The translations under genes and the position numbers were made by a program. DNA of 63,934 nucleotides, the filler included, from Vicugna vicugna (taxonomy: Eukaryota), in NCBI GenBank assembly GCA_013265495.1. It is 77 parts of 75 records of this genome, joined end to end, with 100 filler letters (N's around TTAATTAATTAA, not from the genome) between each part and the next. Parts side by side here need not be neighbours in the genome. Positions count along the whole stretch, not along the records: positions 7,528 to 8,580 come from MU060932.1; positions 8,681 to 9,538 come from PNXW01016752.1; 75 more parts are not named here. One strand, 5' to 3'. The notes under the pieces were generated by a model. The model was not told the origin of the DNA. It made no database searches and saw only the letters and a program-made list of their open reading frames with translations. This document shows positions 1-54,419 of this stretch, piece after piece (positions within the stretch are counted from its first letter, which is position 1; each line of letters starts with the position of its first letter).

Positions 1-1377
1 GTAGAGCACAGAATATAGAATATAGACTACAGAATGCAGAATATATAATATAGAGTTAGAATGATGAACAAAAAATATAGAGTATAGAATAGAGAATATA
101 GAACCCAGAATTAAGAACATAGAATGTAGAACACAGAATTTAGAATATAGAATACAGAATACTGAATTTCGAATATAAAATAATGAATGTAGAACACAGA
201 ATATGGAATGTAGAATACGGAATGCAGAATATTGAATACAGAATATAGAATGTAGAACACAGTATATAGAATATAGATTANNNNNNNNNNNNNNNNNNNN
301 NNNNNNNNNNNNNNNNNNNNNNNNNNNNNNNNNNNNNNNNNNNNNNNNNNNNNNNNNNNNNNNNNNNNNNNNNNNNNNNNNNNNNNNNNNNNNNNNNNNN
401 NNNNNNNNNNNNNNNNNNNNNNNNNNNNNNNNNNNNNNNNNNNNNNNNNNNNNNNNNNNNNNNNNNNNNNNNNNNNNNNNNNNNNNNNNNNNNNNNNNNN
501 NNNNNNNNNNNNNNNNNNNNNNNNNNNNNNNNNNNNNNNNNNNNNNNNNNNNNNNNNNNNNNNNNNNNNNNNNNNNNNNNNNNNNNNNNNNNNNNNNNNN
601 NNNNNNNNNNNNNNNNNNCTGAATATAGAATATAGGATATAGAATATATAACACAGAGTATAGAATATAGAATACGGAATACTGAATATAGAATATAGAA
701 TATAGAATATAGAACACAGAATATATAATGTAGAAAAAGGAATGCAGAATATAGAATACATTATATAGAATATAGAACATAGAATATAGAATATACAATA
801 GAGTATATGGAACCCAAAATTTAGAACATGGAATGCAGAACACAGAATTTAGAATATAGAATACAGAATACTGAATATAGAATTTAGAATATAGAATTTA
901 GAACACAGAATATGGAATGTAGAACACTGAAGGCAGAATATGGTATACAGATTATACAATGTAGAACACAGAATTTAAAATATGGAAAGCAGAATATAGA
1001 ACACGGAATTTAGAACAGGAATGCAGAACACAGANNNNNNNNNNNNNNNNNNNNNNNNNNNNNNNNNNNNNNNNNNNNNNNNNNNNNNNNNNNNNNNNNN
1101 NNNNNNNNNNNNNNNNNNNNNNNNNNNNNNNNNNNNNNNNNNNNNNNNNNNNNNNNNNNNNNNNNNNNNNNNNNNNNNNNNNNNNNNNNNNNNNNNNNNN
1201 NNNNNNNNNNNNNNNNNNNNNNNNNNNNNNNNNNNNNNNNNNNNNNNNNNNNNNNNNNNNNNNNNNNNNNNNNNNNNNNNNNNNNNNNNNNNNNNNNNNN
1301 NNNNNNNNNNNNNATATAGAATTTATAAATTGGGGAACACAGAATATATAATATAGACTACGAAATACAGAATATAG
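1..1377. repeat. Satellite A (heptamer AGAATAT/AGAACAC/AGAATTT-based)
   Basis: Continuous degenerate 7-bp nGAAYRY period, purine-rich on +. Confidence 0.95.
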
Positions 1378-4988: not shown

Positions 4989-5788
4989 AATCTAAATTCT
5001 GTGTTCTGCATTCCATCTTGTAAATTCTATATTTAGTATTCTCTAATGAATATTCTAAATTCTGTGTTCTGCATTCTATATTCAATATTCAGTATTCTAT
5101 ATTCTATAGTCTAAATTCTGTGTTCTGCATCCCATGTTCTATATTCTGCGTTCTGTGTTACGTTTCCATAATCTATATTCTGTGTTCTAAATCCTATATT
5201 CTGTATACTATATTCTGCATTCCGTAATCTATATTCTATATTCTGTGATCTACATTCAATATTCTAAATTCTATATTCAGTAATCTGTATAGTATATTCN
5301 NNNNNNNNNNNNNNNNNNNNNNNNNNNNNNNNNNNNNNNNNNNNNNNNNNNNNNNNNNNNNNNNNNNNNNNNNNNNNNNNNNNNNNNNNNNNNNNNNNNN
5401 NNNNNNNNNNNNNNNNNNNNNNNNNNNNNNNNNNNNNNNNNNNNNNNNNNNNNNNNNNNNNNNNNNNNNNNNNNNNNNNNNNNNNNNNNNNNNNNNNNNN
5501 NNNNNNNNNNNNNNNNNNNNNNNNNNNNNNNNNNNNNNNNNNNNNNNNNNNNNNNNNNNNNNATATTCTGTGTTCTACATTCTATATTCTAAATTGTATA
5601 TTCAGTATTCTGTATTCTATATACGAAATTGTGAGTTCTGCTTTCCATGTTCCAAAATCTGGCTTCAATATTCTTTAAGCTATATTTTTATTCTGTTTTC
5701 TGCATTCTATATTCTAAATTATATATTGAGTATTATGTATTTTTATTCTATATTCTGTGTTTTACATTCAATTTTTAAATTGTTTATT
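4989..5788. repeat. Satellite A (opposite orientation)
   Basis: (ATATTCT)n-type heptamer period. Confidence 0.95.
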
Positions 5789-5888: not shown

Positions 5889-6639
5889 ACCAAAAATATT
5901 AAATATACTGCGACAACAGAGTATGAGTTTCTAATGGTACCTATTCTTTTTATCCAATATGAACAAACGTAACTCCATTTGCTCAGTACTGAGAGTTCAG
6001 ACTGTGTGGAAGCCATCAATAAACTAGCTTGAAGGGAACACAGAGTTTAATTCACTGGGAAAACAATCTACATACATATATATGGGGGAAATAGCTCAAC
6101 CCTGTTTTACAGTGAAAATTGCATGAACTTCAAATTGNNNNNNNNNNNNNNNNNNNNNNNNNNNNNNNNNNNNNNNNNNNNNNNNNNNNNNNNNNNNNNN
6201 NNNNNNNNNNNNNNNNNNNNNNNNNNNNNNNNNNNNNNNNNNNNNNNNNNNNNNNNNNNNNNNNNNNNNNNNNNNNNNNNNNNNNNNNNNNNNNNNNNNN
6301 NNNNNNNNNNNNNNNNNNNNNNNNNNNNNNNNNNNNNNNNNNNNNNNNNNNNNNNNNNNNNNNNNNNNNNNNNNNNNNNNNNNNNNNNNNNNNNNNNNNN
6401 NNNNNNNNNNNNNNNNNNNNNNNNNNNNNNNNNNNNNNNNNNNNNNNNNNNNNNNNNNNNNNNNNNNNNNNNNNNNNNNNNNNNNNNNNNNNNNNNNNNN
6501 NNNNNNNNNNNNNNNNNNNNNNNNNNNNNNNNNNNNNNNNNNNNNNNNNNNNNNNNNNNNNNNNNNNNNNNNNNNNNNNNNNNNNCCAACTCTCTTTAAT
6601 ATTGAAAATCGCAGGAATTTAAAATCGGCACTAAGAAAA
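5889..6639. repeat. Satellite D, diverged variant
   Basis: 'aactagcttgaagggaacacagagttt...catacatatatatggggga...gttttacagtgaaaa' shared with 9639-10324 and 37231-38013. Confidence 0.85.
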
Positions 6640-6739: not shown

Positions 6740-7427
6740 AGAATATAGAAGCCAGAATTTAGAACATGGAATGCAGAACACAGAGTTTCGAATATAAAAA
6801 CAGAATACAGAATGTAGGATTTTGAATATAGAATGCAGAACACAGGATATATAATAGAGTATACAGAACCCAGAATTTAAAACATGGAAAACAGAACTCA
6901 GAATTTAGAATATAGAATACAGAATACTGAAGATAGAATTTAGAATATAGAATGCAGAACACAGAATATAGAATAAAGAATACAGAACCCAGAATTTAGA
7001 ACATGGAATGCAGAACACAAAATTTCGTATATAGAACACAAAACACTGAATATAGTATTTAGAACATAGAATGCGGAACACAGATTTTAGAATATAGAAT
7101 AGAGAATACTGAATATATAATTTTGAACATGGAATGCAGAACACAGTATTTAGAATATAGAATACAGCACGCTGAATATAGAATCTAGAATATAGAATGT
7201 ACAACACAAAATATAGAATATAGAATAAAGAATATTGAACCCAAAATTTTGAACATGGAATGCAGAACACAGAATTTAGAATATAGAATACAGAATACTG
7301 AATATAGAATTTAGAATATAGAATGTAGAACACAGTATAAAGAATATAGAATATGGAATGCAGAATATACACAATGTAGAATATATAATGAAAACACAAA
7401 ATATACAATATAGAATAGAGAATATAG
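6740..7427. repeat. Satellite A
   Basis: Heptamer period. Confidence 0.95.
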
Positions 7428-8120: not shown

Positions 8121-8864
8121 ATGTATGTTAGTGTGTGTGTATGCACATGTGTGGGAGACACTAGCTTCCTCACAAGTATCCAGTTCCTCTAAGGTTCACA
8201 TGCACTTTCTTTTAGTGTTTCAGTACAACTAATTTTTTTTAACAAATCTTTTTACCTGAACTTTTCTTTTAGTAGATTTCTGTTCCTTGCAGGTAAATAA
8301 CCCCTAAGTCAAATTGAGTNNNNNNNNNNNNNNNNNNNNNNNNNNNNNNNNNNNNNNNNNNNNNNNNNNNNNNNNNNNNNNNNNNNNNNNNNNNNNNNNN
8401 NNNNNNNNNNNNNNNNNNNNNNNNNNNNNNNNNNNNNNNNNNNNNNNNNNNNNNNNNNNNNNNNNNNNNNAGGCATAGAAATTTAGTCTTTGAAAGAAGG
8501 AGAGTTACATTTTCTTTTGCCAGTAAGGGAGGAAGATAAATTTAGAACAAATGGTCAAAATTGCTCCCTGGTTTATATACNNNNNNNNNNNNNNNNNNNN
8601 NNNNNNNNNNNNNNNNNNNNNNNNTTAATTAATTAANNNNNNNNNNNNNNNNNNNNNNNNNNNNNNNNNNNNNNNNNNNNCAAAAGCTGGGTAATGTGAT
8701 CCGAGCTACAGTGGCCATGTGCAGATTCTGAGGACAAACTATACCATTGGATTTGCTTTGGCTTCCCTTGCTTTCTGGCTGGTACACACCAGGTCACCGC
8801 AACCCAGATGGGCCCGTAGAACACAGCAGAGTATGTACCTCGATCTCCTTTCCCCTCTTGGCAG

Positions 8865-9417
8865 GGCCTGCAACATGAGCATCCCTGACTATGTGCAGTG
8901 TGCTGAGGACCACCAGACTTGTCCCGTTGTGGTCCAATCCATAGAGATCATCTCAGAGGAGAATTTCTTTTGCATCTATCAGCTACTCACCTTGGTGAGC
9001 CATATCAGCCCATGATATCCACTACAGGCACCACTATGTGCCCGACAATGGGTGGAGCATCTTCCAGACCCACCGCTAGGTCGTGGGCCTTGTCACCATT
9101 ACCGACTGTCTCTCTGCCAAGGCCTTCGAGAAGCTCCACGTGCAGAGGAGCTGTATGGCACCTCGTTTAAAGACTCTTAGCTTTTTCTCTTTGTGCAGCA
9201 TGGGGAGGTAGCCGAGCAGCCGCGCACCGACGTTGCCTTCAAACTAAGAGGACTGCAGGGTGGTGGAGAAGAGGATCGAGGAATTCACTGACTCACTCTT
9301 CATCTTGCTCAAGTCCAAGTGGCTGGCTGGTGGCCCCAAGAAATCTGGGGACAAGATCTCCCTCCTCTGCATCCCGTTTGAGAAGGAGGACTACATGAGA
9401 CTGGACACAGACTGCAG
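8865..9417 (+). pseudogene. TRAPPC9: Degenerate genomic duplicate of the TRAPPC9 (NIBP) first coding exon, copy 1
   Basis: ATG 8875 [29 protein letters not shown]; later frames give [52 protein letters not shown]. Pyrimidine tract + AG ends at 8864, donor GTAAGT at 9418. Stops and frameshifts present. Confidence 0.93.
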
Positions 9418-9638
9418 GTAAGTTTACCTAGAGGACAGTCCACCCTGGCTGTGTGCCGGATTGCTTCCCTACATGCAGAAAGGGATCAACAAAGAAGAAG
9501 TCTGTCTTGTAGCCAAGGGGAGGGGAGGTGCAGCCCGCNNNNNNNNNNNNNNNNNNNNNNNNNNNNNNNNNNNNNNNNNNNNTTAATTAATTAANNNNNN
9601 NNNNNNNNNNNNNNNNNNNNNNNNNNNNNNNNNNNNNN

Positions 9639-10324
9639 TAAGTGTGTGTGAAAGCCGTCCTTCAACTAGCTTGAAGGGAAAAATAGTTTCTTTTCAGATT
9701 CAAACTCCAAACCATACATATATATGGGGAGGTACAAGCTCCAACTCGGTTTTAAAGTGAGAACGGCAGGCACTTCAAACCGGCACTAGGAAACATACTG
9801 AGAAACCTGAGTAAGTGTTTCTCCTGNNNNNNNNNNNNNNNNNNNNNNNNNNNNNNNNNNNNNNNNNNNNNNNNNNNNNNNNNNNNNNNNNNNNNNNNNN
9901 NNNNNNNNNNNTCAGCTATCTGGAACACAAAGTTTCTTTTCAGTTGCAAACTCCACTCCATACATATATATGGGGAGGTACAAGCTCCAACTCGATTTTA
10001 CAGTGAAAACGGCAGGCACTTCAAACCGGAACGGAACTNNNNNNNNNNNNNNNNNNNNNNNNNNNNNNNNNNNNNNNNNNNNNNNNNNNNNNNNNNNNNN
10101 NNNNNNNNNNNNNNNNNNNNNNNNNNNNNNNNNNNNNNNNNNNNNNNNNNNNNNNNNNNNNNNNNNNNNNNNNNNNNNNNNNNNNNNNNNNNNNNNNNCA
10201 GTTCTGAGAGTGTGTGTGAAAGCCGTCCTTCACCTAGCTTGAAGGGAACACAAAGCTTCTTTTCCGTTGCCAACTCCACTCCATACATATATATGGGGAG
10301 GTACAAGCTCCAACTCGGCTCGGT
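9639..10324. repeat. Satellite D (~249-bp monomer)
   Basis: Three partial copies of 'ccatacatatatatggggaggtacaagctccaactcg' within the scaffold. Confidence 0.92.
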
Positions 10325-12730: not shown

Positions 12731-13661
12731 GAACACAGAATTTAGTATATAGGATACAGAATACATAATGTAGAAAGTAGAATGCAGAATATAGAATATA
12801 GGATACAGAATGAAGAACCGAGAATTTAGAACATGGAATTCCGAACACAGACTATAGAATACAGAATAAATAATACAGAATATAGAAAAAATAATAGAGA
12901 ACGTAGAACAGAGTGTATGGAATATAGATTTCAGAATACAGAATCCAGAATTTAGAACATGGGATTCAGAACACAGAATATAGAATATAGACTTTAGCAT
13001 ATCGAATATAGGATATTGAATGTAGAACACGGAAATTAGAATACAGAATACAGAATGCAGCACCGAGTAATTTAGAACATGGAATGCAGAACACAGAATA
13101 TACAATATAGAATACAGAATTCAGAATAAAGAATGTATAATATAGAATGTAGTGCACAGAATATAGAAAAGAAGATACGGAATACAGAACAGAAAATTTA
13201 GAATATGGAATGCAGAATACAGAATATAGAATATAGAATACAGAATACAAAACACAGAATTTAGAACTTGGAATGCAGAACACAGAATTTAGAGAATAGA
13301 ATACAGAATACAGAATATAATATGTAGAATATAGAATGTAGAACACAGAATATAGAGTATAGAATGCAGAATACAGAATATAGAATGTAGAATAAAAAAT
13401 GTAGAACACAAAATATAGAATATAGAAAAGAGAATACAGAACACAGAATTTAGAACATGAAATGCAGGACACAGAATCTAGAATAAAGAATAGATTATAC
13501 AGAATATAGAATGTAGAACCTAGAATATAGAACTCAGAATATAGAATATAGAATGCACAATACTGAAACAAGTATTTATAACATGGAATTCAGAACACAG
13601 GATATAGAATATACATTATAGAAAACAGAAAATAGAATGTAGAATACAGAATGTAGAACAC
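12731..13661. repeat. Satellite A
   Basis: Heptamer period. Confidence 0.95.
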
Positions 13662-13761: not shown

Positions 13762-14400
13762 TGGGCAGTGTGACCATTTTTAACAATATTGATTCTTCCA
13801 ATCCAGAAGCATTGAATATCTTTCCATTTTTAAAGTCTTCTTTAATTTCCTTAATCAATGTTTTGTAATTCTCCATGTATAAGTCTTCACCTCCTTGATT
13901 AGATGTATTCCTAGGTGCTTTATTACTTTGGGTGCTATTTTAAAAGGAATTATTTCTTTACTTTCTTTTCCTGTTGATTCATCATTAGTGTAAAGAAAAG
14001 AAACTGATTTTTGTACATTAATCTTGTATCAGTATCATGTCCATATAGTGATAGTTTTACCTCTTCTTTTCCAATTTGGATCCATTTTGTTTCTTTTTCT
14101 TGCCTGATAGTTGTGGCTAGGACTTCCAAGACTATGTTGAATAGGACTGGTCTGGTGNNNNNNNNNNNNNNNNNNNNNNNNNNNNNNNNNNNNNNNNNNN
14201 NNNNNNNNNNNNNNNNNNNNNNNNNNNNNNNNNNNNNNNNNNNNNNNNNNNNNNNNNNNNNNNNNNNNNNNNNNNNNNNNNNNNNNNNNNNNNNNNNNNN
14301 NNNNNNNNNNNNNNNNNNNNNGCTTTTATTAAGATATGTTCCCTCTATACCTACTTTGGTAAAAAGTTAATCATAAATGTTTTGTCACTTACAGCCTTTG
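13762..14400 (-). mobile_element. LINE-1 ORF2 fragment
   Basis: 'ttaacaatattgattcttccaatcca', 'gtggctaggacttccaagactatgttgaatagg' are antisense L1 RT-region motifs. Confidence 0.92.
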
Positions 14401-14548
14401 TGTCCTTATTGAGAAGCTGGCATATCATTTGGAATATCCTTTCCTTGGNNNNNNNNNNNNNNNNNNNNNNNNNNNNNNNNNNNNNNNNNNNNTTAATTAA
14501 TTAANNNNNNNNNNNNNNNNNNNNNNNNNNNNNNNNNNNNNNNNNNNN

Positions 14549-15129: not shown

Positions 15130-15610
15130 TTCTTTTCTGGGCTCTCTATTCTGTTGCATTGACCTATATGCATGTTTTTCTACCAATACAGAGCTGTCAT
15201 GTTGACTATAGCTCTATAGTATTATCTAAATCGTTAGCGTAAAGAAATGCCACTGATATTTGAACCTTAATCTTGTAACCTTCTACCTTGTTTAATTCTT
15301 TGATCAGCTGTAGTAAATTTTGTCCGGATCTTGCAGGGTTTTCTATATATAGTAAGATATTCTCTGCATATACTGAGACTTTTACCTCTTCCTTCCAATA
15401 ATTTACATCCACTTCTCTCTCTTGTTTGATTGCTGTGGCTAGGACTTCCAAGACTATCTTGAGTAGCAGTCGTGATAGTGTGCATCCTTGTCTTGATCCA
15501 GATTTTAGTGGGACGGATTTGACTTTCTCAACATTGAGTACTATTTTTGCTGTAGGTTTGTTATCTATAGCTTTCAAGATGCTGAGATATAGTCCCTCTA
15601 TGCCCACTTT
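15130..15610 (-). mobile_element. LINE-1 ORF2 reverse-transcriptase fragment
   Basis: [63 protein letters not shown] is a degenerate L1 RT (FADD motif decayed). Confidence 0.95.
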
Positions 15611-22551: not shown

Positions 22552-23333
22552 AGAATATAGAATTTAGAATTTAGAATGTAGAACACAGAATATAAATTAT
22601 AGACTACGGAATGCAGAATATATTATATACAATATAGAATGATGAACACAAAATATAGAATATAGAATAGACAATATAGAACCCAGAATTTAGAACATGG
22701 AAGGTAGAACACAGAATTTACAATATAAAATACAGAATACTGAATATCAAATTTAGAATATAGAATGTAGAACACAGAATATGGAATGTAGAATACAGAA
22801 TGCAGAATATTGAATACAGAATATAGAATGTAGAACTCAGAATTTAGAATATGGAACACAGAATAGAGAACCCAGAAATTAGACATGGAATGCAGAACAC
22901 AGAATTTGGAGTATAAAATACAGAATACAAGAAATTAGACATGGAATGCAGAACACAGAATTTGGAATGTAAAATACAGAATACTGAATATAGAATTCAG
23001 AACATAGAATAGATAATAAAGAATATAGAATCCAGAATTTAGAACATGGAATGCCGAACACAGAATTTAGAATATAGAATACAGAATATTGAATATAGAA
23101 TTTAGAACATAGAATTCGGAACAAAGAATTTAGAATATAGAATACAGAATACTTAATATAGAATCAAGTATATAGAATGCGGAACATAGAAATTAGAATA
23201 AAGAATACAGAAAATTATATAAAGAATTTAGAATATAGAATGTAGAACACAGAATTTAGAATATAGAGTAAAGAATACAGATTATTGAATAAAGAATATA
23301 GAATGTAGAACACAGAATATAGAATAGAGAATA
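22552..23333. repeat. Satellite A
   Basis: Heptamer period. Confidence 0.95.
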
Positions 23334-24102: not shown

Positions 24103-24879
24103 NNNNNNNNNNNNNNNNNNNNNNNNNNNNNNNNNNNNNNNNNNNNTTAATTAATTAANNNNNNNNNNNNNNNNNNNNNNNNNNNNNNNNNNNNNNNNNN
24201 NNTCGTCCAACAGTTTGTCAGTAGTCTGTTGGACAACGTCATAAAACGCTGATTGAAGGTTGCTGGAATGGAATCTGTTCTTATTAATATTAAGTAAGCA
24301 CATATTGAGTGCTTACTGTATGATGGAATTGTCACTCAGCCTCACATGAATATTATTTCTCTTAAAACCTCACATATTTCCTTGTTATTCTCACTTTACA
24401 TATAAGGAGTCTGAGGATTAGGTCTTCTCTCTTTTGTGGGGAGCTCATTATCAATGATGGGAAGTTGTAAGGAAAAAGATATTGATTCATCCTGAGAAAA
24501 CATTTTTATGAGAGTCAGCAATGAAGAAGATGAACACTGAAGAAGGTGATGATTTTTCGAGTGAGACAAGCCCTGGGTTGTACGGATTCAGCATCCCTGT
24601 CCTGGACACGTCACGTGTAGAAATGCTTGGAGGGTGAGGCGGGGCAGCCGCACAGAGAACGTGGATGCTGGGTCATTCGGCTGTGCTCAGGCCCAGTGGG
24701 GCTTTCTCCTAAGGGCAGTGGACCGTCATTGACAGATTTTATGTAGGGGAGTGGGGTGGTATCGTAGTTCACTTTTGTCTTGTAGAGTGCTTGGAAACAT
24801 TTAGAAGGCTTGGCAGGAGGTGATGTGATGAGTCAGAGTAGGGTGGCTGGGAGGTGTAGCAGTGTTCAATTTTCAAGTG

Positions 24880-26166: not shown

Positions 26167-27003
26167 GGTTCCGGAATCCTGAGCGTGGGGAGGTTCCACT
26201 AACGGACGGCATCGCGTGGGTTCTAACGGAAAACATATGCTCGTCTCCCCAGAGGGTTTTCCTAATATTTCTTTGCCAGGGTATGCTAGGGGGGTTTGCA
26301 GGATATCCCAGTGTCAGAGGCTGCCTCCCCAAGGTCAGGGAATTTATTTCTCGAACTTCCCCGAAGAGCGAACACCTGTGACTGAAGAGAGCTGCATGGG
26401 GTTGTCTCTCGAGCTCCCCCACGCACTGACAACGTGTCCGGAATCCTGAGCGTGGGGAGTTTCCACCAACGGTCAGTGTGTTCTAATGCCTAAGCTCGTC
26501 TCCTTTGAGGCTTGTAATAATATCTCTGTGCCAGGGAATCTAGGGGTGATTGCAAGATATCCCAGTGACCTCGGCTGCCTCCCCAAGATCAGGGAAGGTA
26601 TTTCTCGGACTTCCCCGAACAGTGAACACCTGTGTGTGAAGAGAGCTGCGTGGGGTTGTCTCTCGTGCTCCCCCACGCACTGACAGTGGTTCCGGAATCT
26701 TTAGCGTGGGGAGGTTTCCCTAACGGTCGACAGCGCGTGGGTTCTAACGAAAAGCCTATGCTCGTCTCCCCTGAGGGTTTTCCTAATATCTCTGTGCCAG
26801 GGAATGCTAGGTGTGATTTTAGGATATCCCAGTGTCAAAGGCTGCCTCCCTAAGTTCAGGGAAGTTATTTCTCGGACTTCCCCGAACAGGGAACACCTGT
26901 GAATGAAGAGAGCTGGGTTGAGTTGTCTCTCGAACTCCCCCACGCACTGACAGTTGGTTCCGGAATCCTGGGCGTGGGGAGGATCCACCAACGGTCGGAA
27001 GCG
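26167..27003. repeat. Satellite B (~3 monomers)
   Basis: Tandem monomers, one with small deletions near 26475. Confidence 0.95.
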
Positions 27004-32417: not shown

Positions 32418-32804
32418 CTCGCTCCAAAGCGGTTTTCCACAGCAAACCGCTCTTCCTTAGAATCTGGAATTAGGAAACCTGCTGAGAATTCAGAGTAAGT
32501 ATTTCTGTAAGTCACTTAACCTTCAATGCTGGATGAAAGAACGCCTCTCCACAAGATCACTTCTGACATTTGAATTTGTGTTGGAGACGTCCTTCTCCTA
32601 ACATGTTGGAAAGCCAGAGTTTCTGGAATACTTCGGGAACTACCCAATTTACATATCAAAGCGGAGGAACTCGATTCAAAGCAGTTTACCAAAGCAAAGT
32701 GATTTTTCTTTGAAACCAGCGTTTCACAGTAAACATAAAAGGCAGAGTAATACAAACAAGTTCTCTGATTTCTCAGTATGTTTCTTAAACCCGGTTTCAA
32801 GTAA
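32418..32804. repeat. Satellite E (~252-bp diverged member of the C/D superfamily)
   Basis: 'gctccaaagcggtttt' at 32421 vs 'gattcaaagcagttt' at 32673; motifs 'cagagtaagtatttc' and 'gctggatgaa.gaacg..tctccaca' shared with D. Confidence 0.75.
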
Positions 32805-34028: not shown

Positions 34029-34883
34029 GAAACAAAGCACACGCATTTTTCAGGGGCCACATTTATTCCCATACTGTGGGTTGTAGGTTACATTTCTCCA
34101 CCTCCCACGGAGAGGCACACACTGATACTTGGATTAAGAGCCCAAATCCCTCTTTCAGTCACACTCTGGCCTAGGTAAACCATCAGGGAATACAAGCAAA
34201 TCGATTCTATTAAAACCAAGATGCTGATGTCACTAGGAGGAACTACCTCACCCTCAGAATTCTGGAACACAACCTTGTGTGGTGGGGAAATGTGGAGCCC
34301 CACTCCACGCAGATGAATGGGTGCTCAGGTGTTTCCCTTTAGGGAGAATTCCTCTAAGAACTTCCTCAGTCCATCGGGGGGTACTCGCTGCTACTTGGAC
34401 TCCAAGCCCAACCCCCAGCTTTCTCTCATGGCCCGGCCTAAGGAAACACTCAGGGAACACAAGCTAAGGGATCCTAATAGAACCCAGGTGCTGCTGTCAT
34501 TTGGAGTAGCCACCCCAAGCTCAGGATTCCAGAAAACTACTTCGTGTGTGTTCTGTTGGTGGAGAAACAGAGTCCACGCATATTTCAGGGGGCACAGGTA
34601 TTCCCTTGTTGGGAGGGGATTGTTGATTAAACACCTCCACTTCCCATGGAGAGGCACTCACTAATACTTGGATTTAGAGCACAAATCCCACTTTGAACTG
34701 CACTCCGGAATACGCAATCCATCAGGGAAGAGAAGCTTAAGGATTCTACTAGAACACTGGCACTGCTCTCAGTTGGAGGATATTTCCCACTCTTAGGATT
34801 CCGGAAGCTAGACTTGTGGGGAGGGGGATTTGTGTATTCCCAAACCACGTAGTTGGATGTGGGCACAGGTGTTCCCCTTTAGG
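34029..34883. repeat. Satellite B' (~540-bp dimer)
   Basis: 'cagggaa.a.aagc' at ~34184, 34451 and 34723; 'tacttggatt.agagc' only at 34126 and 34665 (539 apart). Confidence 0.88.
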
Positions 34884-37230: not shown

Positions 37231-38013
37231 GGAACACAATGTTTCTTTTCAGTTGCAAAATCCACTCCATACATACATATGTTGAGGAACAATCTCCAAC
37301 TCGGTTTTACAGAGAAAAAGGCAAGCACTTCAAACCAACACTAGGAAACAGACTGAGAAACCAGAGTAAGGGTTTCTCCTGCAACCCGTTCCCTTTGTGC
37401 TGGATGAACGAACGTCTCTCCACATGCTCAGTTCTGAGAGATAAGTGNNNNNNNNNNNNNNNNNNNNNNNNNNNNNNNNNNNNNNNNNNNNNNNNNNNNN
37501 NNNNNNNNNNNNNNNNNNNNNNNNNNNNNNNNNNNNNNNNNNNNNNNNNNNNNNNNNNNNNNNNNNNNNNNNNNNNNNNNNNNNNNNNNNNNNNNNNNNN
37601 NNNNNNNNNNNNNNNNNNNNNNNNNNNNNNNNNNNNNNNNNNNNNNNNNNNNNNNNNNNNNNNNNNNNNNNNNNNNNNNNNNNNNNNNNNNNNNNNNNNN
37701 NNNNNNNNNNNNNNNNNNNNNNNNNNNNNNNNNNNNNNNNNNNNNNNNNNNNNNNNNNNNNNNNNNNNNNNNNNNNNNNNNNNNNNNNNNNNNNNNNNNN
37801 NNNNNNNNNNNNNNNNNNNNNNNNNNNNNNNNNNNNNNNNNNNNNNNNNNNNNNNNNNNNNNNNNNNNNNNNNNNNNNCCCGTTCCCTTTGTGCTGGATG
37901 AACGAACGTCTCTCCACATGCTCAGTTTTGAGAGATAAGTGTGTGTGAAAGCCATCCTGCAACTAGCCTGAAGGGAACACAAAGTTTCTTTTCAAATGCC
38001 AACTCCACTCCAT
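37231..38013. repeat. Satellite D (~249-bp monomer)
   Basis: Overlap of the two contigs (37385 = 37879, 37231 = 37974) reconstructs a 154+95 = 249-bp unit. Confidence 0.92.
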
Positions 38014-44071: not shown

Positions 44072-45833
44072 NNNNNNNNNNNNNNNNNNNNNNNNNNNNN
44101 NNNNNNNNNNNNNNNTTAATTAATTAANNNNNNNNNNNNNNNNNNNNNNNNNNNNNNNNNNNNNNNNNNNNCAATAGGCACCTCACGCAGGTGGGACTCG
44201 GGTCCCCTCTGCCTATAACTCACAGGGTTGGTCTCGACATTCTTTTTATCAATTATCTGGCATCTTCTCCTCCAACTTACCAACAACCAGAAAGTAGAAT
44301 CTGATCTTAGTTAAGTTCAAGAATCACAGAGCACCGCCTCCACAGCGGGTCCGGCAGCATGTACCAGGTCCTCCNNNNNNNNNNNNNNNNNNNNNNNNNN
44401 NNNNNNNNNNNNNNNNNNNNNNNNNNNNNNNNNNNNNNNNNAGCCCAGAAGGTCTGCACTTCCAACGCAAAGTGGGGCCGTTGACTTAATCACAGTGACA
44501 AAGTGAGAATGAGCATTTCTCTGTTCTCTACCATACTCCGTGATACGCCTTTCCCTGCATTGCATTAGGNNNNNNNNNNNNNNNNNNNNNNNNNNNNNNN
44601 NNNNNNNNNNNNNNNNNNNNNNNNNNNNNNNNNNNNNNNNNNNNNNNNNNNNNNNNNNNNNNNNNNNNNNNNNNNNNNNNNNNNNNNNNNNNNNNNNNNN
44701 NNNNNNNNNNNNNNNNNNNNNNNNNNNAATCCAAACCTGGTGGCTGTCGGACAGGAAGAGAGGGCCTGAGCCGAACAGGTGCTGGGCCTGGGGGGCAGGA
44801 GACACTGGCTCCAGCCCCAGCTCAACCAGCGCCTCGTTCTGCCTCTCCTCTCGNNNNNNNNNNNNNNNNNNNNNNNNNNNNNNNNNNNNNNNNNNNNNNN
44901 NNNNNNNNNNNNNNNNNNNNNNNNNNNNNNNNNNNNNNNNNNNNNNNNNNNNNNNNNNNNNNNNNNNNNNNNNNNNNNNNNNNNNNNNNNNNNNNNNNNN
45001 NNNNNNNNNNNNNNNNNNNNNNNNNNNNNNNNNNNNNNNNNNNNNNNNNNNNNNNNNNNNNNNNNNNNNNNNNNNNNNNNNNNNNNNNNNNNNNNNNNNN
45101 NNNNNNNNNNNNNNNNNNNNNNNNNNNNNNNNNNNNNNNNNNNNNNNNNNNNNNNNNNNNNNNNNNNNNNNNNNNNNNNNNNNNNNNNNNNNNNNNNNNN
45201 NNNNNNNNNNNNNNNNNNNNNNNNNNNNNNNNNNNNNNNNNNNNNNNNNNNNNNNNNNNNNNNNNNNNNNNNNNNNNNNNNNNNNNNNNNNNNNNNNNNN
45301 NNNNNNNNNNNNNNNNNNNNNNNNNNNNNNNNNNNNNNNNNNNNNNNNNNNNNNNNNNNNNNNNNNNNNNNNNNNNNNNNNNNNNNNNNNNNNNNNNNNN
45401 NNNNNNNNNNNNNNNNNNNNNNNNNNNNNNNNNNNNNNNNNNNNNNNNNNNNNNNNNNNNNNNNNNNNNNNNNNNNNNNNNNNNNNNNNNNNNNNNNNNN
45501 NNNNNNNNNNNNNNNNNNNNNNNNNNNNNNNNNNNNNNNNNNNNNNNNNNNNNNNNNNNNNNNNNNNNNNNNNNNNNNNNNNNNNNNNNNNNNNNNNNNN
45601 NNNNNNNNNNNNNNNNNNNNNNNNNNNNNNNNNNNNNNNNNNNNNNNNNNNNNNNNNNNNNNNNNNNNNNNNNNNNNNNNNNNNNNNNNNNNNNNNNNNN
45701 NNNNNNNNNNNNNNNNNNNNNNNNNNNNNNNNNNNNNNNNNNNNNNNNNNNNNNNNNNNNNNNNNNNNNNNNNNNNNNNNNNNNNNNNNNNNNNNNNNNN
45801 NNNNNNNNNNNNNNNNNNNNNNNNNNNNNNNNN

Positions 45834-46063
45834 NGTGGGTCTGGAAGTCGCTCCACCCATTCTCGGGCGCATAGTGGTGCCTGTAGTGGATACAGATTGC
45901 CCACTGGGAGCCGCACGGGCTGATCTGGCTCACCGAGGAGATTCGCTTATAGATGCAAAAGAAATTCTCCTCTGAGATGATCCCCACGGGTTGGACCACC
46001 ACGGGAAGAGTCTCATAGTCCTCAGCACACTGCACGTAGTCAGGGATGCTGATGTTGCAGGCC
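45834..46063 (-). pseudogene. TRAPPC9: Genomic duplicate of the TRAPPC9 first coding exon, copy 2 (ATG>ATC; frame open until the N gap)
   Basis: [47 protein letters not shown]....[19 protein letters not shown]; acceptor AG at 46065-46064; upstream flank 46064-46235 is homologous to 8681-8864. Confidence 0.93.
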
Positions 46064-46419
46064 CTGCCGAGAGGGGAGAGGAGATCGAGGTACATACTGT
46101 GCTGTGGGCTGTGGGCCCATCTGGATTGCGGTAACCAGTCACAAGGCAAGGGAAGCCAAAGCAAATCCGGGGGTACAGTTTGTCCTCAGAGTCTGCACAT
46201 GGCTACCGTAGCTCGGATCACATTACCCAGGTTTTGGTCCAGGCTTCCTGCCCCTGCAGTGAAGGGTCATTTCTTGTTTTCTGTTTCCAAGCACCTAGCA
46301 AGGCCCTNNNNNNNNNNNNNNNNNNNNNNNNNNNNNNNNNNNNNNNNNNNNTTAATTAATTAANNNNNNNNNNNNNNNNNNNNNNNNNNNNNNNNNNNNN
46401 NNNNNNNTTTGGCAGTGTC

Positions 46420-48760: not shown

Positions 48761-49687
48761 CTCGTCTCCCCTGAGTGTTTTTCTAATATCTCTGTGACAG
48801 GGAATCCTTGGGATGGTTGCAGGATATCCCAGTGTACGAGGCTGCCTCCCCAAGGTCAGGGAAGATATTTCTCGGACGTCCTGGAACAGGGAACTCCTGT
48901 GACTGTAGAGAGCTGCGTGGAGTTGTCTCTCGAGCTCCCCCACGCACTGACAACGGTTCCGGAATCCTGAGCGTGGGGAGGTTCCACCAACGGTCGGCAG
49001 CGCGTGGGTTCTAACGGAATGCCTAAGCGCGTTTCCCCTGAGGTTTTTCCTAATGTCTCTGTGCCAGTGAATGCTAGGCGTGATTGCAGTATATCCCAGT
49101 GTCACAGGCTGCCTCCCCAAGGTCAGGGAAGGTATTTCTCGGACTTCCCCAAACAGGGAACACCTGTGACTGAAGGGAGCTGCGTGGAGATGTTTCTCGA
49201 GCTCCCCCACGCACTGACAACGGTTCCGGAATCCTGAGCGTGGGGAGATTCCACCAACGGTCGGCAGCGCGTGGGTTTTAACGGAATGCCTAAGCTCGTC
49301 TCCCCTGAGGGTTTTCCTAATGTCTCTGTGCCAGGGAATGCTAGGGGTGACTGCAGGATATCCCAGTGACCGAGGCTGCCTCCGCAAAGCCAGGGAAGTT
49401 ATTTCTCGGACTTCCCCGAAAAGGGAACTCCTGTGACTGAAGAGAGCTGCGTGGAGTTGTCTCTCGAACTCCCCCACGCACTGACAACTGTTCCGGAATC
49501 CTGAGCGTGGGGAGGTTCCACATGGTTCTAAAGGAATGCTTAAGCTCGTCTACCCCTGAGGGTTATCCTAATGTTTCTGTGCCAGGGAATGCTAGGTGTG
49601 ATTGCAGGTTATCCCAGTAACCTAGGCTGCCTCCCCAAGGTAAGGGAAGTTATTTCTCAGACTTCTCCGAACAGGGAACTCCTGTGA
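48761..49687. repeat. Satellite B, ~3.5 tandem 267-bp monomers
   Basis: 'ggaatcctgagcgtgggga' at 48961, 49228 and 49495 (exact 267 spacing). Confidence 0.97.
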
Positions 49688-49787: not shown

Positions 49788-50235
49788 GTGGAAGAGGAGG
49801 AGGAGGTGGAAGAGGAGGACGTGGAGGAGGAGATGGAGGAGGAGGAGATGGAGGAGGAGGAAACGGAGGTGGTGGAGGAGGAGGTGGAGGAGGAGGTGGA
49901 GGAGGAGGAGATTTAGGAGGAAGAGGAGGTGGTAGAGGAGGAGGAGGTGGAAGAGGAGGAGGAGGAGGATGTGGAGGAGGAGGATGTGGAGGAGGAGGAT
50001 GTGGAGGAGGAGGAGGAGCTGAAGGAGGAGGAGGAGTTGGAGGAGGAGGTGGAGGAGGACTTGGAGGAGGTGGAGGAGGAGGTGGAGGAGGACTTGGAGG
50101 AGGAGGTGGAGGAGGAGGTGAAGGAGGAGGAGGTGGAGGAGATGGAGGAGGAGGAGGTGGAGGAGGAGGTGGAGGAGGAGGAGGGGGAGGAGGAGGAGGA
50201 GGAGGAGGAGGTGGTGGAGGAGGAGGAGGAGGTGG
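49788..50235 (+). repeat. Degenerate (GAG)n purine-rich trinucleotide repeat
   Basis: ~150 triplets; poly-Glu in one frame with an in-frame TAG at 49914. Confidence 0.9.
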
Positions 50236-50546
50236 ACTTTAGTTGATCTTCTTGTGAGGTGGAGTGAAATCAGTTATGACCTTTGGTACCATCTTGGGGA
50301 CACTGCCTTCTAGATAAACATTTCCTAAATGAACACGGACAACACTAACTGTAAAGAACAAGTGATACACTGGTTTTTATGAACTGAAAGACTTAACAAA
50401 TACACCATTAAGAGAGCAGTGAGGCACCCTGGGAGATGATACTCACNNNNNNNNNNNNNNNNNNNNNNNNNNNNNNNNNNNNNNNNNNNNTTAATTAATT
50501 AANNNNNNNNNNNNNNNNNNNNNNNNNNNNNNNNNNNNNNNNNNNN

Positions 50547-52850: not shown

Positions 52851-53161
52851 ATCAGCTCTAGTAGTTTTGTGTGGACCTTTTAGGGTTTTCTATATGAAGT
52901 AACATGTCATCAGCATATAATGACACTTTTACCCCTTGTTTTCCAATTTGGATCCCTTTTATTTCTCTCTCTTGCCTGCCTGCTGTGGCTAGGACTTCCA
53001 GGACTATGTTGAATAGGAGTGGTGATAGTGGGCATCCTTGTCTTGTCCCAGATTTTACTGGGAAGCTTTGAGTTTTTCACTGTTGAGTAGTATGCTGGCT
53101 GTAGGTTTGTCATATATAGCTTTTATTATGTTGAGATATGTTCCCTCTATACCCACTTTGG
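52851..53161 (-). mobile_element. LINE-1 ORF2 RT fragment
   Basis: 'gtggctaggacttccaggactatgttgaataggagtggtgatagtgggcatccttgtctt'. Confidence 0.93.
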
Positions 53162-53416: not shown

Positions 53417-54419
53417 NNNNNNNNNNNNNNNNNNNNNNNNNNNNNNNNNNNNNNNNNNNNTTAATTAATTAANNNNNNNNNNNNNNNNNNNNNNNNNNNN
53501 NNNNNNNNNNNNNNNNATTTACAAGAATTTACATGAGTGTGATGAGGACAGGGACGTGGGGTCTGTGAGACCCACCCTCACCTCCTGATCCAGGGAAGGC
53601 AGGGGCCTGAGGGGAGCGGCGCTGCCGGGGAACCCCAACGTGGTCAGCGCCCCAAACCAAAACTTCACCTAGATGCATGTAGACAGCTTTTGAGCTACAA
53701 AATGTGGTCGCATTTCAAGCTGGACAATTTTACTCACTCCCACCAAGAGAAACAGGGGAGAATTAGGCTCTGCTCCTGCACCAAAGCATTCTTTTAAAAA
53801 TTAATGACTGTGGAATAGTAAAAGCAACAATGGAGTAAAAGTGACTGGAAGAGAACTTGCTTGACCCGAGCTCACTGGCCGCACTGGCTGAGCCCTTGTG
53901 GTACCAAAACAGACAGACCCACAAGGAGGGAGGTTTAATGCGCTGCTGTATTTTGATGCCTGGAGCCATGCCTGGTACACGAGGTTCTGGGTAAACAATG
54001 GTGACAGTGTCAACCACTATGGGCTAAGCACACATCCAGCTACTCCGCCAAACCCCAAGGACAGACTTCAAAGGGAAAAACAACCTGGCATTCTCTGGTG
54101 GGTCTGCAGACTCAGAGCCAAGCAGTTGCTGAGCAAAAATGTCACCAGTTCCTCCTATGACAAAAGAGGAGGCACTGGCCTGGGGGCTGGGGCAGGGCTC
54201 CAGGCTTCCACTGCTCACTCACCAGTCTGTCCACGGGGAGAAGGTGGTCCCTGCTTACTTTACACCGATGCACCTACCTTGACTAACTCCTGGGGGCTCA
54301 GCAGGTGGTGACAGATCAGNNNNNNNNNNNNNNNNNNNNNNNNNNNNNNNNNNNNNNNNNNNNTTAATTAATTAANNNNNNNNNNNNNNNNNNNNNNNNN
54401 NNNNNNNNNNNNNNNNNNN

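What the first reader, a model, noticed from the sequence alone, without database searches (positions are those of the whole stretch)
8681..9538. TRAPPC9 first-coding-exon duplicon found twice in 64 kb of unplaced scaffolds: likely an amplified camelid paralog family
Seen: two non-identical copies (8865-9417 + and 45834-46063 -). Both have the same upstream intronic flank and splice acceptor, and copy 1 keeps its GTAAGT donor, so they are DNA-level duplications, not retrocopies. Compared with recalled human TRAPPC9, both share FFRIY>FFCIY, IRYRHH>IHYRHH and a one-residue-shorter NNEWG>NGWS. Known: TRAPPC9 (TRAPPII subunit/NIBP) is normally single copy. Inference: one diverged founder duplicate was amplified, and two hits in ~77 scaffolds suggest a high copy number, possibly within heterochromatic blocks.
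Basis: partly seen in the sequence, partly recalled or inferred. Interest (0 to 1): 0.75.

Follow-up and report, generated by a model that had tools for sequence, protein, structure and literature searches.

The report
Camelid TRAPPC9 pseudogene repeat family
These are two broken copies of the front part of the trafficking gene TRAPPC9, members of a large family of partial duplicates spread over many chromosomes of camels and alpacas, which matters mainly because such copies can be mistaken for the real gene.

Summary
Observation confirmed. Both copies are DNA-level (unspliced) duplicates of the first coding exon of TRAPPC9, 89% identical to each other, and both are broken: copy 1 has a private frameshift and stops, copy 2 has lost its ATG. 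They belong to a large camelid family already auto-annotated as 'TRAPPC9-like': 40 of 82 protein hits, in alpaca and all three Camelus species, on 13 chromosome-scale alpaca contigs. All copies descend from one diverged founder (tree support 100/100). Copy 2 sits in a subfamily shared with camels, copy 1 in an alpaca-only one. The unit is larger than one exon, is often tandem, and shows in 4 of the window's 77 scaffolds. The window pair evolves neutrally (dN/dS 1.3, p=1). New detail: the founder's four indels net to an open frame across the exon, still open in 8 Bactrian models, so a coding subfamily is not excluded. I could not retrieve the parental camelid gene or test a heterochromatic location. 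In print I found only a gene-family count. This scan reported the family twice before, on other genomes. Verdict: real, new member of a known kind, moderate interest.

The parts
8681..8864 (+). Copy 1 upstream intron flank with pyrimidine tract and acceptor AG (8863-8864)
   Evidence: 19 of 173 paired bases differ from copy 2
8865..9417 (+). Copy 1: whole first coding exon of TRAPPC9 (residues 1-195), broken; ATG at 8875; alpaca-only subfamily
   Evidence: 120 of 180 aligned residues identical to pig TRAPPC9; clade of 14 alpaca segments, support 100/98
9001..9017 (+). Net 20-bp deletion in copy 1 relative to copy 2 and the parent (frameshift)
9053..9245 (+). Family-wide indels relative to the parent: 3 bp lost at 9053, 12 bp at 9122, 1 bp at 9146, 5 bp at 9241 (sum 21, in frame). 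Stops at 9077 and 9245, plus 9178 (parent frame) or 9209 (family frame)
   Evidence: shared with NCBI models; nearly all laid depth reads another base at 9077 (table 3)
9418..9538 (+). Donor GTAAGT and start of the next intron; some Camelus models read on into this sequence
   Evidence: (P0363, P0080)
46064..46307 (-). Copy 2 upstream intron flank and acceptor
45835..46063 (-). Copy 2: 5' part of the exon (residues 1-74), start codon lost (ATC at 46053), cut by an assembly gap; subfamily shared with Camelus
   Evidence: 96% identical to alpaca model P0005; clade of 11 rows with 9 Camelus, support 95/97
44446..44850 (-). Sequence downstream of copy 2 in the same scaffold, matching read-through or extra exons of camelid TRAPPC9-like models
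   Evidence: tblastn E 2e-15 (P0083) and 1e-6 (P0077)
53517..54319 (-). Separate scaffold from the same repeat unit: matches model segments that lie between the first exon and the 287-354 exon
   Evidence: tblastn E 1e-14 (P0158) and 3e-7 (P0148); shuffled models give no hit
24399..24467 (+). Probable further piece of the unit: matches the last exon of model P0156 (weak)
   Evidence: 18 of 23 residues, E 1e-4
8581..8680 (.). Artificial scaffold spacer; another at 9539-9638. Copy 1's scaffold is only 858 bp

Best explanation
In a camelid ancestor, before Old and New World camelids split, a genomic segment holding the 5' part of TRAPPC9 (first coding exon, introns and at least two later exons) was duplicated at DNA level [shown: flanks, splice sites, later exons, shared subfamilies]. 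That founder diverged (about ten amino-acid changes and four indels) and was then amplified many times [shown by tree and contig counts]. Amplification most likely went by unequal crossing-over in head-to-tail arrays and by exchange between repeat-rich regions of different chromosomes [inferred: tandem junctions and many-chromosome spread are shown, the recombination mechanism and location are not]. Later bursts were lineage-specific, such as the alpaca-only subfamily of copy 1. Most copies, including both here, are unprocessed pseudogenes that behave as repeat DNA; some are probably transcribed and spliced into chimeric RNAs without a selected protein [inferred].
For: 40 of 82 hits are short camelid TRAPPC9-like models from four species; the other 42 are non-camelid TRAPPC9. 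Alpaca models lie on 13 contigs over 20 Mb and 6 under 10 Mb, Bactrian models on 8 contigs over 40 Mb, counted by distinct contig length. Tree of 49 distinct camelid segments, 2 window copies and 9 outgroups: outgroups split off at 100/100; two supported clades mix alpaca and Camelus (95/97, 98/92); one is alpaca-only (100/98). C33 and the one-residue deletion are in 51 of 51 paralog rows, the four-residue deletion in 46 of 46 rows that cover it. 0 of 102 models keep the parent frame after residue 102; 75 show the shifted frame. 9 of 102 models splice the first exon onto another first exon, 18 splice a later exon onto it, 33 hold the 287-354 exon, 4 the next one. 3224, 476 and 716 distinct contigs from three presumed DNA runs lie on the 858 bp. 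Copy 1 against copy 2: pN 0.120, pS 0.094, flank 0.110.
Against: The parental camelid gene was not retrieved, so founder-specific changes are judged against other mammals only. No genome is held, so unit length, copy number and location were not measured. The dN/dS test rests on 22 differences in 64 codons and has little power. 8 of 102 models keep an open frame across the whole exon. The tree has only 98 columns and 20 of 55 inner branches are open. No listed run holds more than 0.29 of copy 1's words, so this exact copy may be rare, polymorphic or partly misassembled.
Confidence: 0.85

Rival explanations
1. A young camelid protein-coding family: the founder made a 190-250-residue protein (TRAPPC9 N-terminus with a ~30-residue shifted middle) that is still made from some copies, and the window holds dead members.
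For: The four shared indels sum to 21 bp, with a 1-bp and a 5-bp loss cancelling out. 8 of 102 models, all Bactrian, read the exon in one frame; a dromedary model (P0364) does so by eye. One Bactrian locus has 14 annotated isoforms, which suggests transcript support (my knowledge of NCBI annotation).
Against: Neutral divergence of the window pair. Paralog branches are several times longer than those among placental orthologues in the same tree. No alpaca model among 43 matched the whole-exon pattern. Annotated models are biased towards open frames. Models end in many unrelated C-termini.
Confidence: 0.12
2. The exon is part of the monomer of the ~5.3-kb short-arm macrosatellites (VpaSat08/09/11/12), found in all camelids on 16-20 chromosome pairs.
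For: Same species range and many-chromosome spread (PMC13751797 Results); tandem junctions in models.
Against: None of 8 published primers matches the window with 4 or fewer mismatches; the paper does not mention TRAPPC9 in its main text; a unit with several exons and introns is probably longer than 5.3 kb; an earlier scan note gives about 54 kb (e1-7791955, not checked). Full monomers could not be read.
Confidence: 0.05
3. The two scaffolds are assembly artefacts: alleles or error-laden fragments of the single gene or of one duplicate.
For: Scaffolds are tiny and unplaced; copy 1 has many private changes and at most 0.29 of its words are in other runs.
Against: 11% divergence between copies; each is nearest a different subfamily of independently annotated models; hundreds to thousands of related contigs in three other runs.
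Confidence: 0.02
4. Retrocopies of TRAPPC9 mRNA.
For: Dispersal over many chromosomes is typical of retrocopies (general knowledge).
Against: Intron flank and acceptor in both copies, donor and intron in copy 1, no join to the next exon: bovine residues beyond 195 find nothing in the window.
Confidence: 0.01

Closest known systems
TRAPPC9 (NIBP, TRAPPII subunit; Pfam PF08626 on the full-length hits), the parent gene
   Same: Exon covers residues 1-195; 120 of 180 aligned residues identical to pig; splice sites kept.
   Different: Partial, multi-copy, frameshifted; Pfam finds nothing in the window translations.
[quoted passage not shown]
   Same: Same family: copy 2 is 96% identical to P0005, copy 1 91% to P0023.
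   Different: The paper gives only a count; its zero for Bactrian camel disagrees with 32 Bactrian models seen here. No origin, structure or spread is described in the section read.
Pseudogene-rich repetitive blocks of alpaca (NEK10-like, ATF5, FMN2-like, ABHD17A-like; PMC13751797)
   Same: Fragmented, multi-copy gene pieces in camelid repeat DNA.
   Different: Those blocks sit on one or two chromosomes and are absent or reduced in Camelus assemblies; this family spans many chromosomes and both camelid groups.
Primate core-duplicon families (NPIP, TBC1D3, GOLGA) and pericentromeric gene-fragment duplications (recalled, not from a call)
   Same: A gene segment seeds lineage-specific, tandem and interchromosomal duplication with chimeric transcripts.
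   Different: No evidence here of a selected protein; the window pair is neutral.

Membership tests
Functional TRAPPC9 orthologue | Intact frame from ATG through the first coding exon | tested here: not met
   Copy 1 frameshifts and stops; copy 2 ATC
Functional TRAPPC9 orthologue | Conserved R/K33 and R56 | tested here: not met
   Both copies C33 and H56; of 77 distinct non-camelid N-termini 69 have R/K33, 1 (a fish) C33, 76 R56, 0 H56
Processed pseudogene (retrocopy) | Exon-exon joins, no intron sequence | tested here: not met
   Intron flanks, acceptor and donor present; no residues beyond 195
Unprocessed (duplicated) pseudogene | Intron and splice sites copied with the exon | tested here: met
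Unprocessed (duplicated) pseudogene | Disabling lesions and neutral divergence | tested here: met
   Lesions; pN 0.120, pS 0.094, flank 0.110, Fisher p=1 on 64 codons, low power
Segmental duplication (usual definition, recalled: at least 1 kb at 90% identity or more) | Length and identity thresholds | tested here: inconclusive
   Window copies are 89% identical over 382 bp and limited by scaffold size; many contigs at 95-99+% point to closer copies
Camelid TRAPPC9-like family (NCBI models) | Shared founder changes and placement inside the paralog clade | tested here: met
Alpaca pseudogene-rich repetitive blocks (PMC13751797) | Fragmented, multi-copy gene pieces | tested here: met
Alpaca pseudogene-rich repetitive blocks (PMC13751797) | Location in a satellite-rich chromosomal block | not testable with these tools
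   No genome held; neither scaffold joins a satellite
Alpaca pseudogene-rich repetitive blocks (PMC13751797) | Absent or much reduced in Camelus | tested here: not met
   57 of 102 models are from Camelus
5.3-kb short-arm macrosatellite (VpaSat08/09/11/12) | Sequence match to the monomer | tested here: inconclusive
   0 of 8 primers within 4 mismatches; monomers cut to about 400 bases and the positive control failed
Core-duplicon gene family (NPIP/TBC1D3 type, recalled) | Tandem and interchromosomal spread of one core | tested here: met
Core-duplicon gene family (NPIP/TBC1D3 type, recalled) | Transcribed, translated core under selection | tested here: inconclusive

The most novel reading that the evidence does not exclude
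The TRAPPC9 5' segment is a camelid core duplicon: the founder's cancelling frameshifts were fixed because it made a new ~190-250-residue protein, which is still expressed from some copies (the open-frame Bactrian and dromedary subfamilies) and could compete with or modulate TRAPPII assembly, while its amplification built repeat blocks on a third or more of camelid chromosomes.
Probability: 0.12. Interest if true: 0.72.

Novelty: new member of a known kind. Interest (0 to 1): 0.38.

Why it matters
It defines a major gene-derived repeat of camelid genomes that is older than the split of camels and South American camelids and has lineage-specific bursts, useful for finishing assemblies and for dating repeat turnover. 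Practically, 'TRAPPC9' hits in camelid studies may be to these copies: two dromedary GWAS name TRAPPC9 at chr14:31.08-31.37 Mb, next to SUPT20H. From recall, SUPT20H is a human 13q gene and TRAPPC9 an 8q24 gene, so these hits probably tag a paralog, and the SNPs may be differences between collapsed copies (inference, not tested). If some copies are translated it would be a non-primate example of a duplication core giving a new gene.

Tried and rejected
Whole-genome search: no genome held. PDB sequence search with copy 2: 0 hits. Pfam: 0 of 3 exon translations hit; of the 150 longest of 294 window ORFs only two L1 reverse-transcriptase pieces and spurious matches hit, so no second gene fragment was identified; 144 shorter ORFs were not scanned. 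Parental camelid TRAPPC9: not among the 120 rows listed of 713 or of 616, nor among at most 15 members listed per cluster; absence there is a listing limit, not evidence of loss. Metagenome scan for DNA of relatives: 215 pattern matches, none confirmed. Expression: no RNA holder listed; one run guessed to be RNA gave 40 contigs that also cover the intron flanks, so it is uninformative. Summed contig depths (about 1e4-1e6) are not used as a copy number, as the tool states. Macrosatellite link: primers did not match and the monomers could not be read. Camel-human synteny for chr14 was not found in passages of PMC6598621 or PMC7288448. The VicPac4 assembly paper is not held. The 95 of 102 'CIY' count used a loose pattern and is not used; counts come from the alignment. 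Satellites elsewhere in the window were rejected as evidence of adjacency because scaffolds are concatenated.

Full report
Setting. The window is a concatenation of 77 small scaffolds (median 749 bp, 43,920 non-N bases) separated by an artificial spacer. It is rich in repeats: a 7-mer satellite in 12 scaffolds and a group of 14 scaffolds that includes a 267-bp tandem repeat. Position in the window says nothing about position in the genome. No whole genome is held.

Observation. Copy 1 (scaffold 8681-9538, plus strand) holds 184 bp of intron, the acceptor at 8863-8864, the exon 8865-9417 with ATG at 8875, the donor at 9418 and 121 bp of the next intron. Copy 2 (minus strand, 46307 down to 45835) holds intron, acceptor and the first 229 bp of the exon before a gap. 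They match at 340 of 382 paired bases. Bovine TRAPPC9 hits only these two places and only with residues 1-195. So these are unspliced DNA duplicates, not retrocopies. A frameshift-aware alignment to pig TRAPPC9 shows for copy 1 a net 20-bp loss near 9001-9017, then losses of 3, 12, 1 and 5 bp, and stops at 9077, 9178 and 9245; 120 of 180 residues are identical. Copy 2 has ATC for ATG and the same 3-bp loss.

The family. Searching with copy 2 gave 82 proteins among 88 candidates: 40 short camelid models, most named TRAPPC9-like (alpaca, Bactrian, dromedary, wild camel), and 42 non-camelid TRAPPC9. Cluster look-ups for 13 of the 40 camelid clusters added members, giving 102 models: 43 alpaca, 32 Bactrian, 20 dromedary, 5 wild camel, 2 unnamed. 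These include isoforms, so they are not 102 loci. By distinct contig length, alpaca models lie on 13 contigs over 20 Mb and 6 under 10 Mb, Bactrian models on 8 contigs over 40 Mb; for 3 of the 13 I saw no accession, so they could come from another assembly. Four dromedary models share one 1.47-Mb contig and two share one 82-kb contig, so copies are also clustered.

One founder, old subfamilies. 85 of the 102 models held the first ~100 residues; 49 were distinct. With both window copies and 9 outgroups (17 models left out for lacking the segment), the outgroups separate from all paralogs at 100/100 on a long branch (0.26). All 51 paralog rows have C33 and the one-residue deletion, 49 have H56 (2 have Y, none R), and 46 of 46 rows covering it lack the four residues near 91. 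Among 77 distinct non-camelid N-termini, 69 have R or K at 33, only a fish has C, and 76 have R56. Two supported clades contain both alpaca and Camelus (95/97 with copy 2; 98/92), so at least two subfamilies predate the split, which PMC13751797 (abstract) puts at more than 11 million years. Copy 1 falls in a clade of 14 alpaca segments and no Camelus (100/98), which also marks the window as South American camelid DNA. The tree has 98 columns and many open forks, so deeper order is unresolved.

The parental gene. I could not retrieve camelid full-length TRAPPC9 (searches list only part of their hits). The indirect answer is strong: 0 of 102 models keep the parent frame after residue 102, and a gene that differs by only 3-8% in this region between cattle and the other listed mammals and birds is unlikely to carry a shifted 30-residue stretch. 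Two contigs in run X19 carry the 12 bp that the family lacks (table 7), so an undeleted form exists in such DNA; it may be the parent or an early paralog.

Size and arrangement of the unit. 33 of 102 models contain a later exon matching residues 287 onward and 4 the following exon. 9 models splice the end of the first exon to the start of another first exon and 18 splice the later exon back onto a first exon; on a linear genome this needs copies in tandem and in the same direction (inference). Residues 196-286 were not found in frame in any model tested (75 models). Two more window scaffolds (53517-54319; 24399-24467, weak) and the downstream pieces of copy 2's scaffold match non-TRAPPC9 parts of these models, while shuffled models give no hit. 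So 4 of 77 scaffolds come from this unit.

Abundance. I laid 4 of 24 listed runs on copy 1 at 80% likeness. The three presumed DNA runs gave 3224, 476 and 716 contigs covering 30 of 30 bins. Single contigs reach depths of 2751 and 1531 where long listed contigs of the same runs have 12-62. The tool warns that depth sums are no copy number and I had no single-copy control; the pattern fits tens to hundreds of copies (inference). Against a simple reading: no run holds more than 0.29 of copy 1's words, and at many sites, including the stop at 9077, nearly all depth shows another base. Copy 1 is thus a decayed outlier, possibly rare or imperfectly assembled.

Selection. Over 64 codons copy 1 and copy 2 differ at 22 bases: pN 0.120, pS 0.094 (ratio 1.3, Fisher p=1), against 0.110 in the flank. 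That is what neutral decay gives, with low power. One point keeps a coding reading alive: the four family-wide indels sum to 21 bp, the 1-bp and 5-bp losses cancel, and 8 of 102 models, all Bactrian, read the whole exon in one frame. Chance can give this, and annotation favours open frames. Expression could not be judged.

Mechanism. Shown: DNA-level copy of a multi-exon 5' segment, a single diverged founder, subfamilies older than the camelid split, tandem junctions, spread over many chromosomes, decay of the window copies. Inferred: amplification by unequal crossing-over and interchromosomal exchange in repeat-rich regions, and chimeric transcription. Untested: heterochromatic location, unit length, copy number.

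Literature. Searches for TRAPPC9 with camel (17 papers), alpaca (0), pseudogene/duplication/Camelus, the full name with Camelus (1), 'TRAPPC9-like' (0) and camelid terms found no description of the family in the held library; most subscription papers are missing from it, including the VicPac4 paper. PMC10568864 (passages and section 9) lists the orthogroup with 0, 4 and 8 copies. PMC13751797 (abstract, Methods, first parts of Results and Discussion, passages, one spreadsheet with cut cells) describes other pseudogene-rich blocks and 5.3-kb short-arm satellites; its supplementary figures were not visible and could bear on location. PMC10357240 and PMC8027435 (passages) name TRAPPC9 as a GWAS candidate at chr14:31 Mb. 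bioRxiv 10.1101/2025.08.28.672513 (part 1 of 2) does not mention it in the part read; its CNV table was not visible. PMC6598621 and PMC7288448 (passages) added nothing. Two earlier notes of this scan describe the same family on other genomes; I had inferred the multi-exon, tandem and many-chromosome features before seeing them and did not check their 54-kb and over-100-copy figures.

Verdict. Real; a camelid-wide amplified pseudogene repeat derived from the front of TRAPPC9; new member of a known kind; interest 0.38. The coding-subfamily reading has about 12% probability.

Noticed in passing
window 1-1377, 4989-5788, 6740-7427, 12731-13661, 22552-23333 and 7 more scaffolds: Degenerate 7-mer satellite (AGAATAT type) with 21-, 63- and 126-bp higher periods in 12 of 77 scaffolds.
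   Followed up: no
window 48761-49687 and 13 related scaffolds (e.g. 26167-27003, 34029-34883): A 14-scaffold repeat group including 3.5 copies of a 267-bp tandem unit, probably a major camelid satellite.
   Followed up: no
window 15209-15610 and 52861-53076 (minus): L1-type reverse transcriptase fragments; a third scaffold, 13762-14448, groups with them.
   Followed up: no
window 5889-6639, 9639-10324, 32418-32804, 37231-38013: Four scaffolds share an unidentified repeat at 74-86% identity; groups of 8 and 6 scaffolds share other repeats.
   Followed up: no
window 49788-50446: GGA-rich low-complexity array, about 440 bp.
   Followed up: no
papers PMC10357240 and PMC8027435: Many top dromedary GWAS SNPs cluster at chr14:30.8-31.4 Mb with TRAPPC9, POFUT2, CSE1L, DDX27 and SUPT20H, and within the first 100 kb of several chromosomes; this looks like collapsed duplications rather than true loci (inference).
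   Followed up: partly
table 7, run X19 at 9126: Two contigs keep the 12 bp that the family lacks but read L where most mammals have P: parent allele or an early paralog.
   Followed up: no
P0022, P0363-P0366 (Camelus) against window 9418-9520: A Camelus subfamily reads through the exon end for about 36 residues into the intron, giving 222-254-residue open frames.
   Followed up: partly
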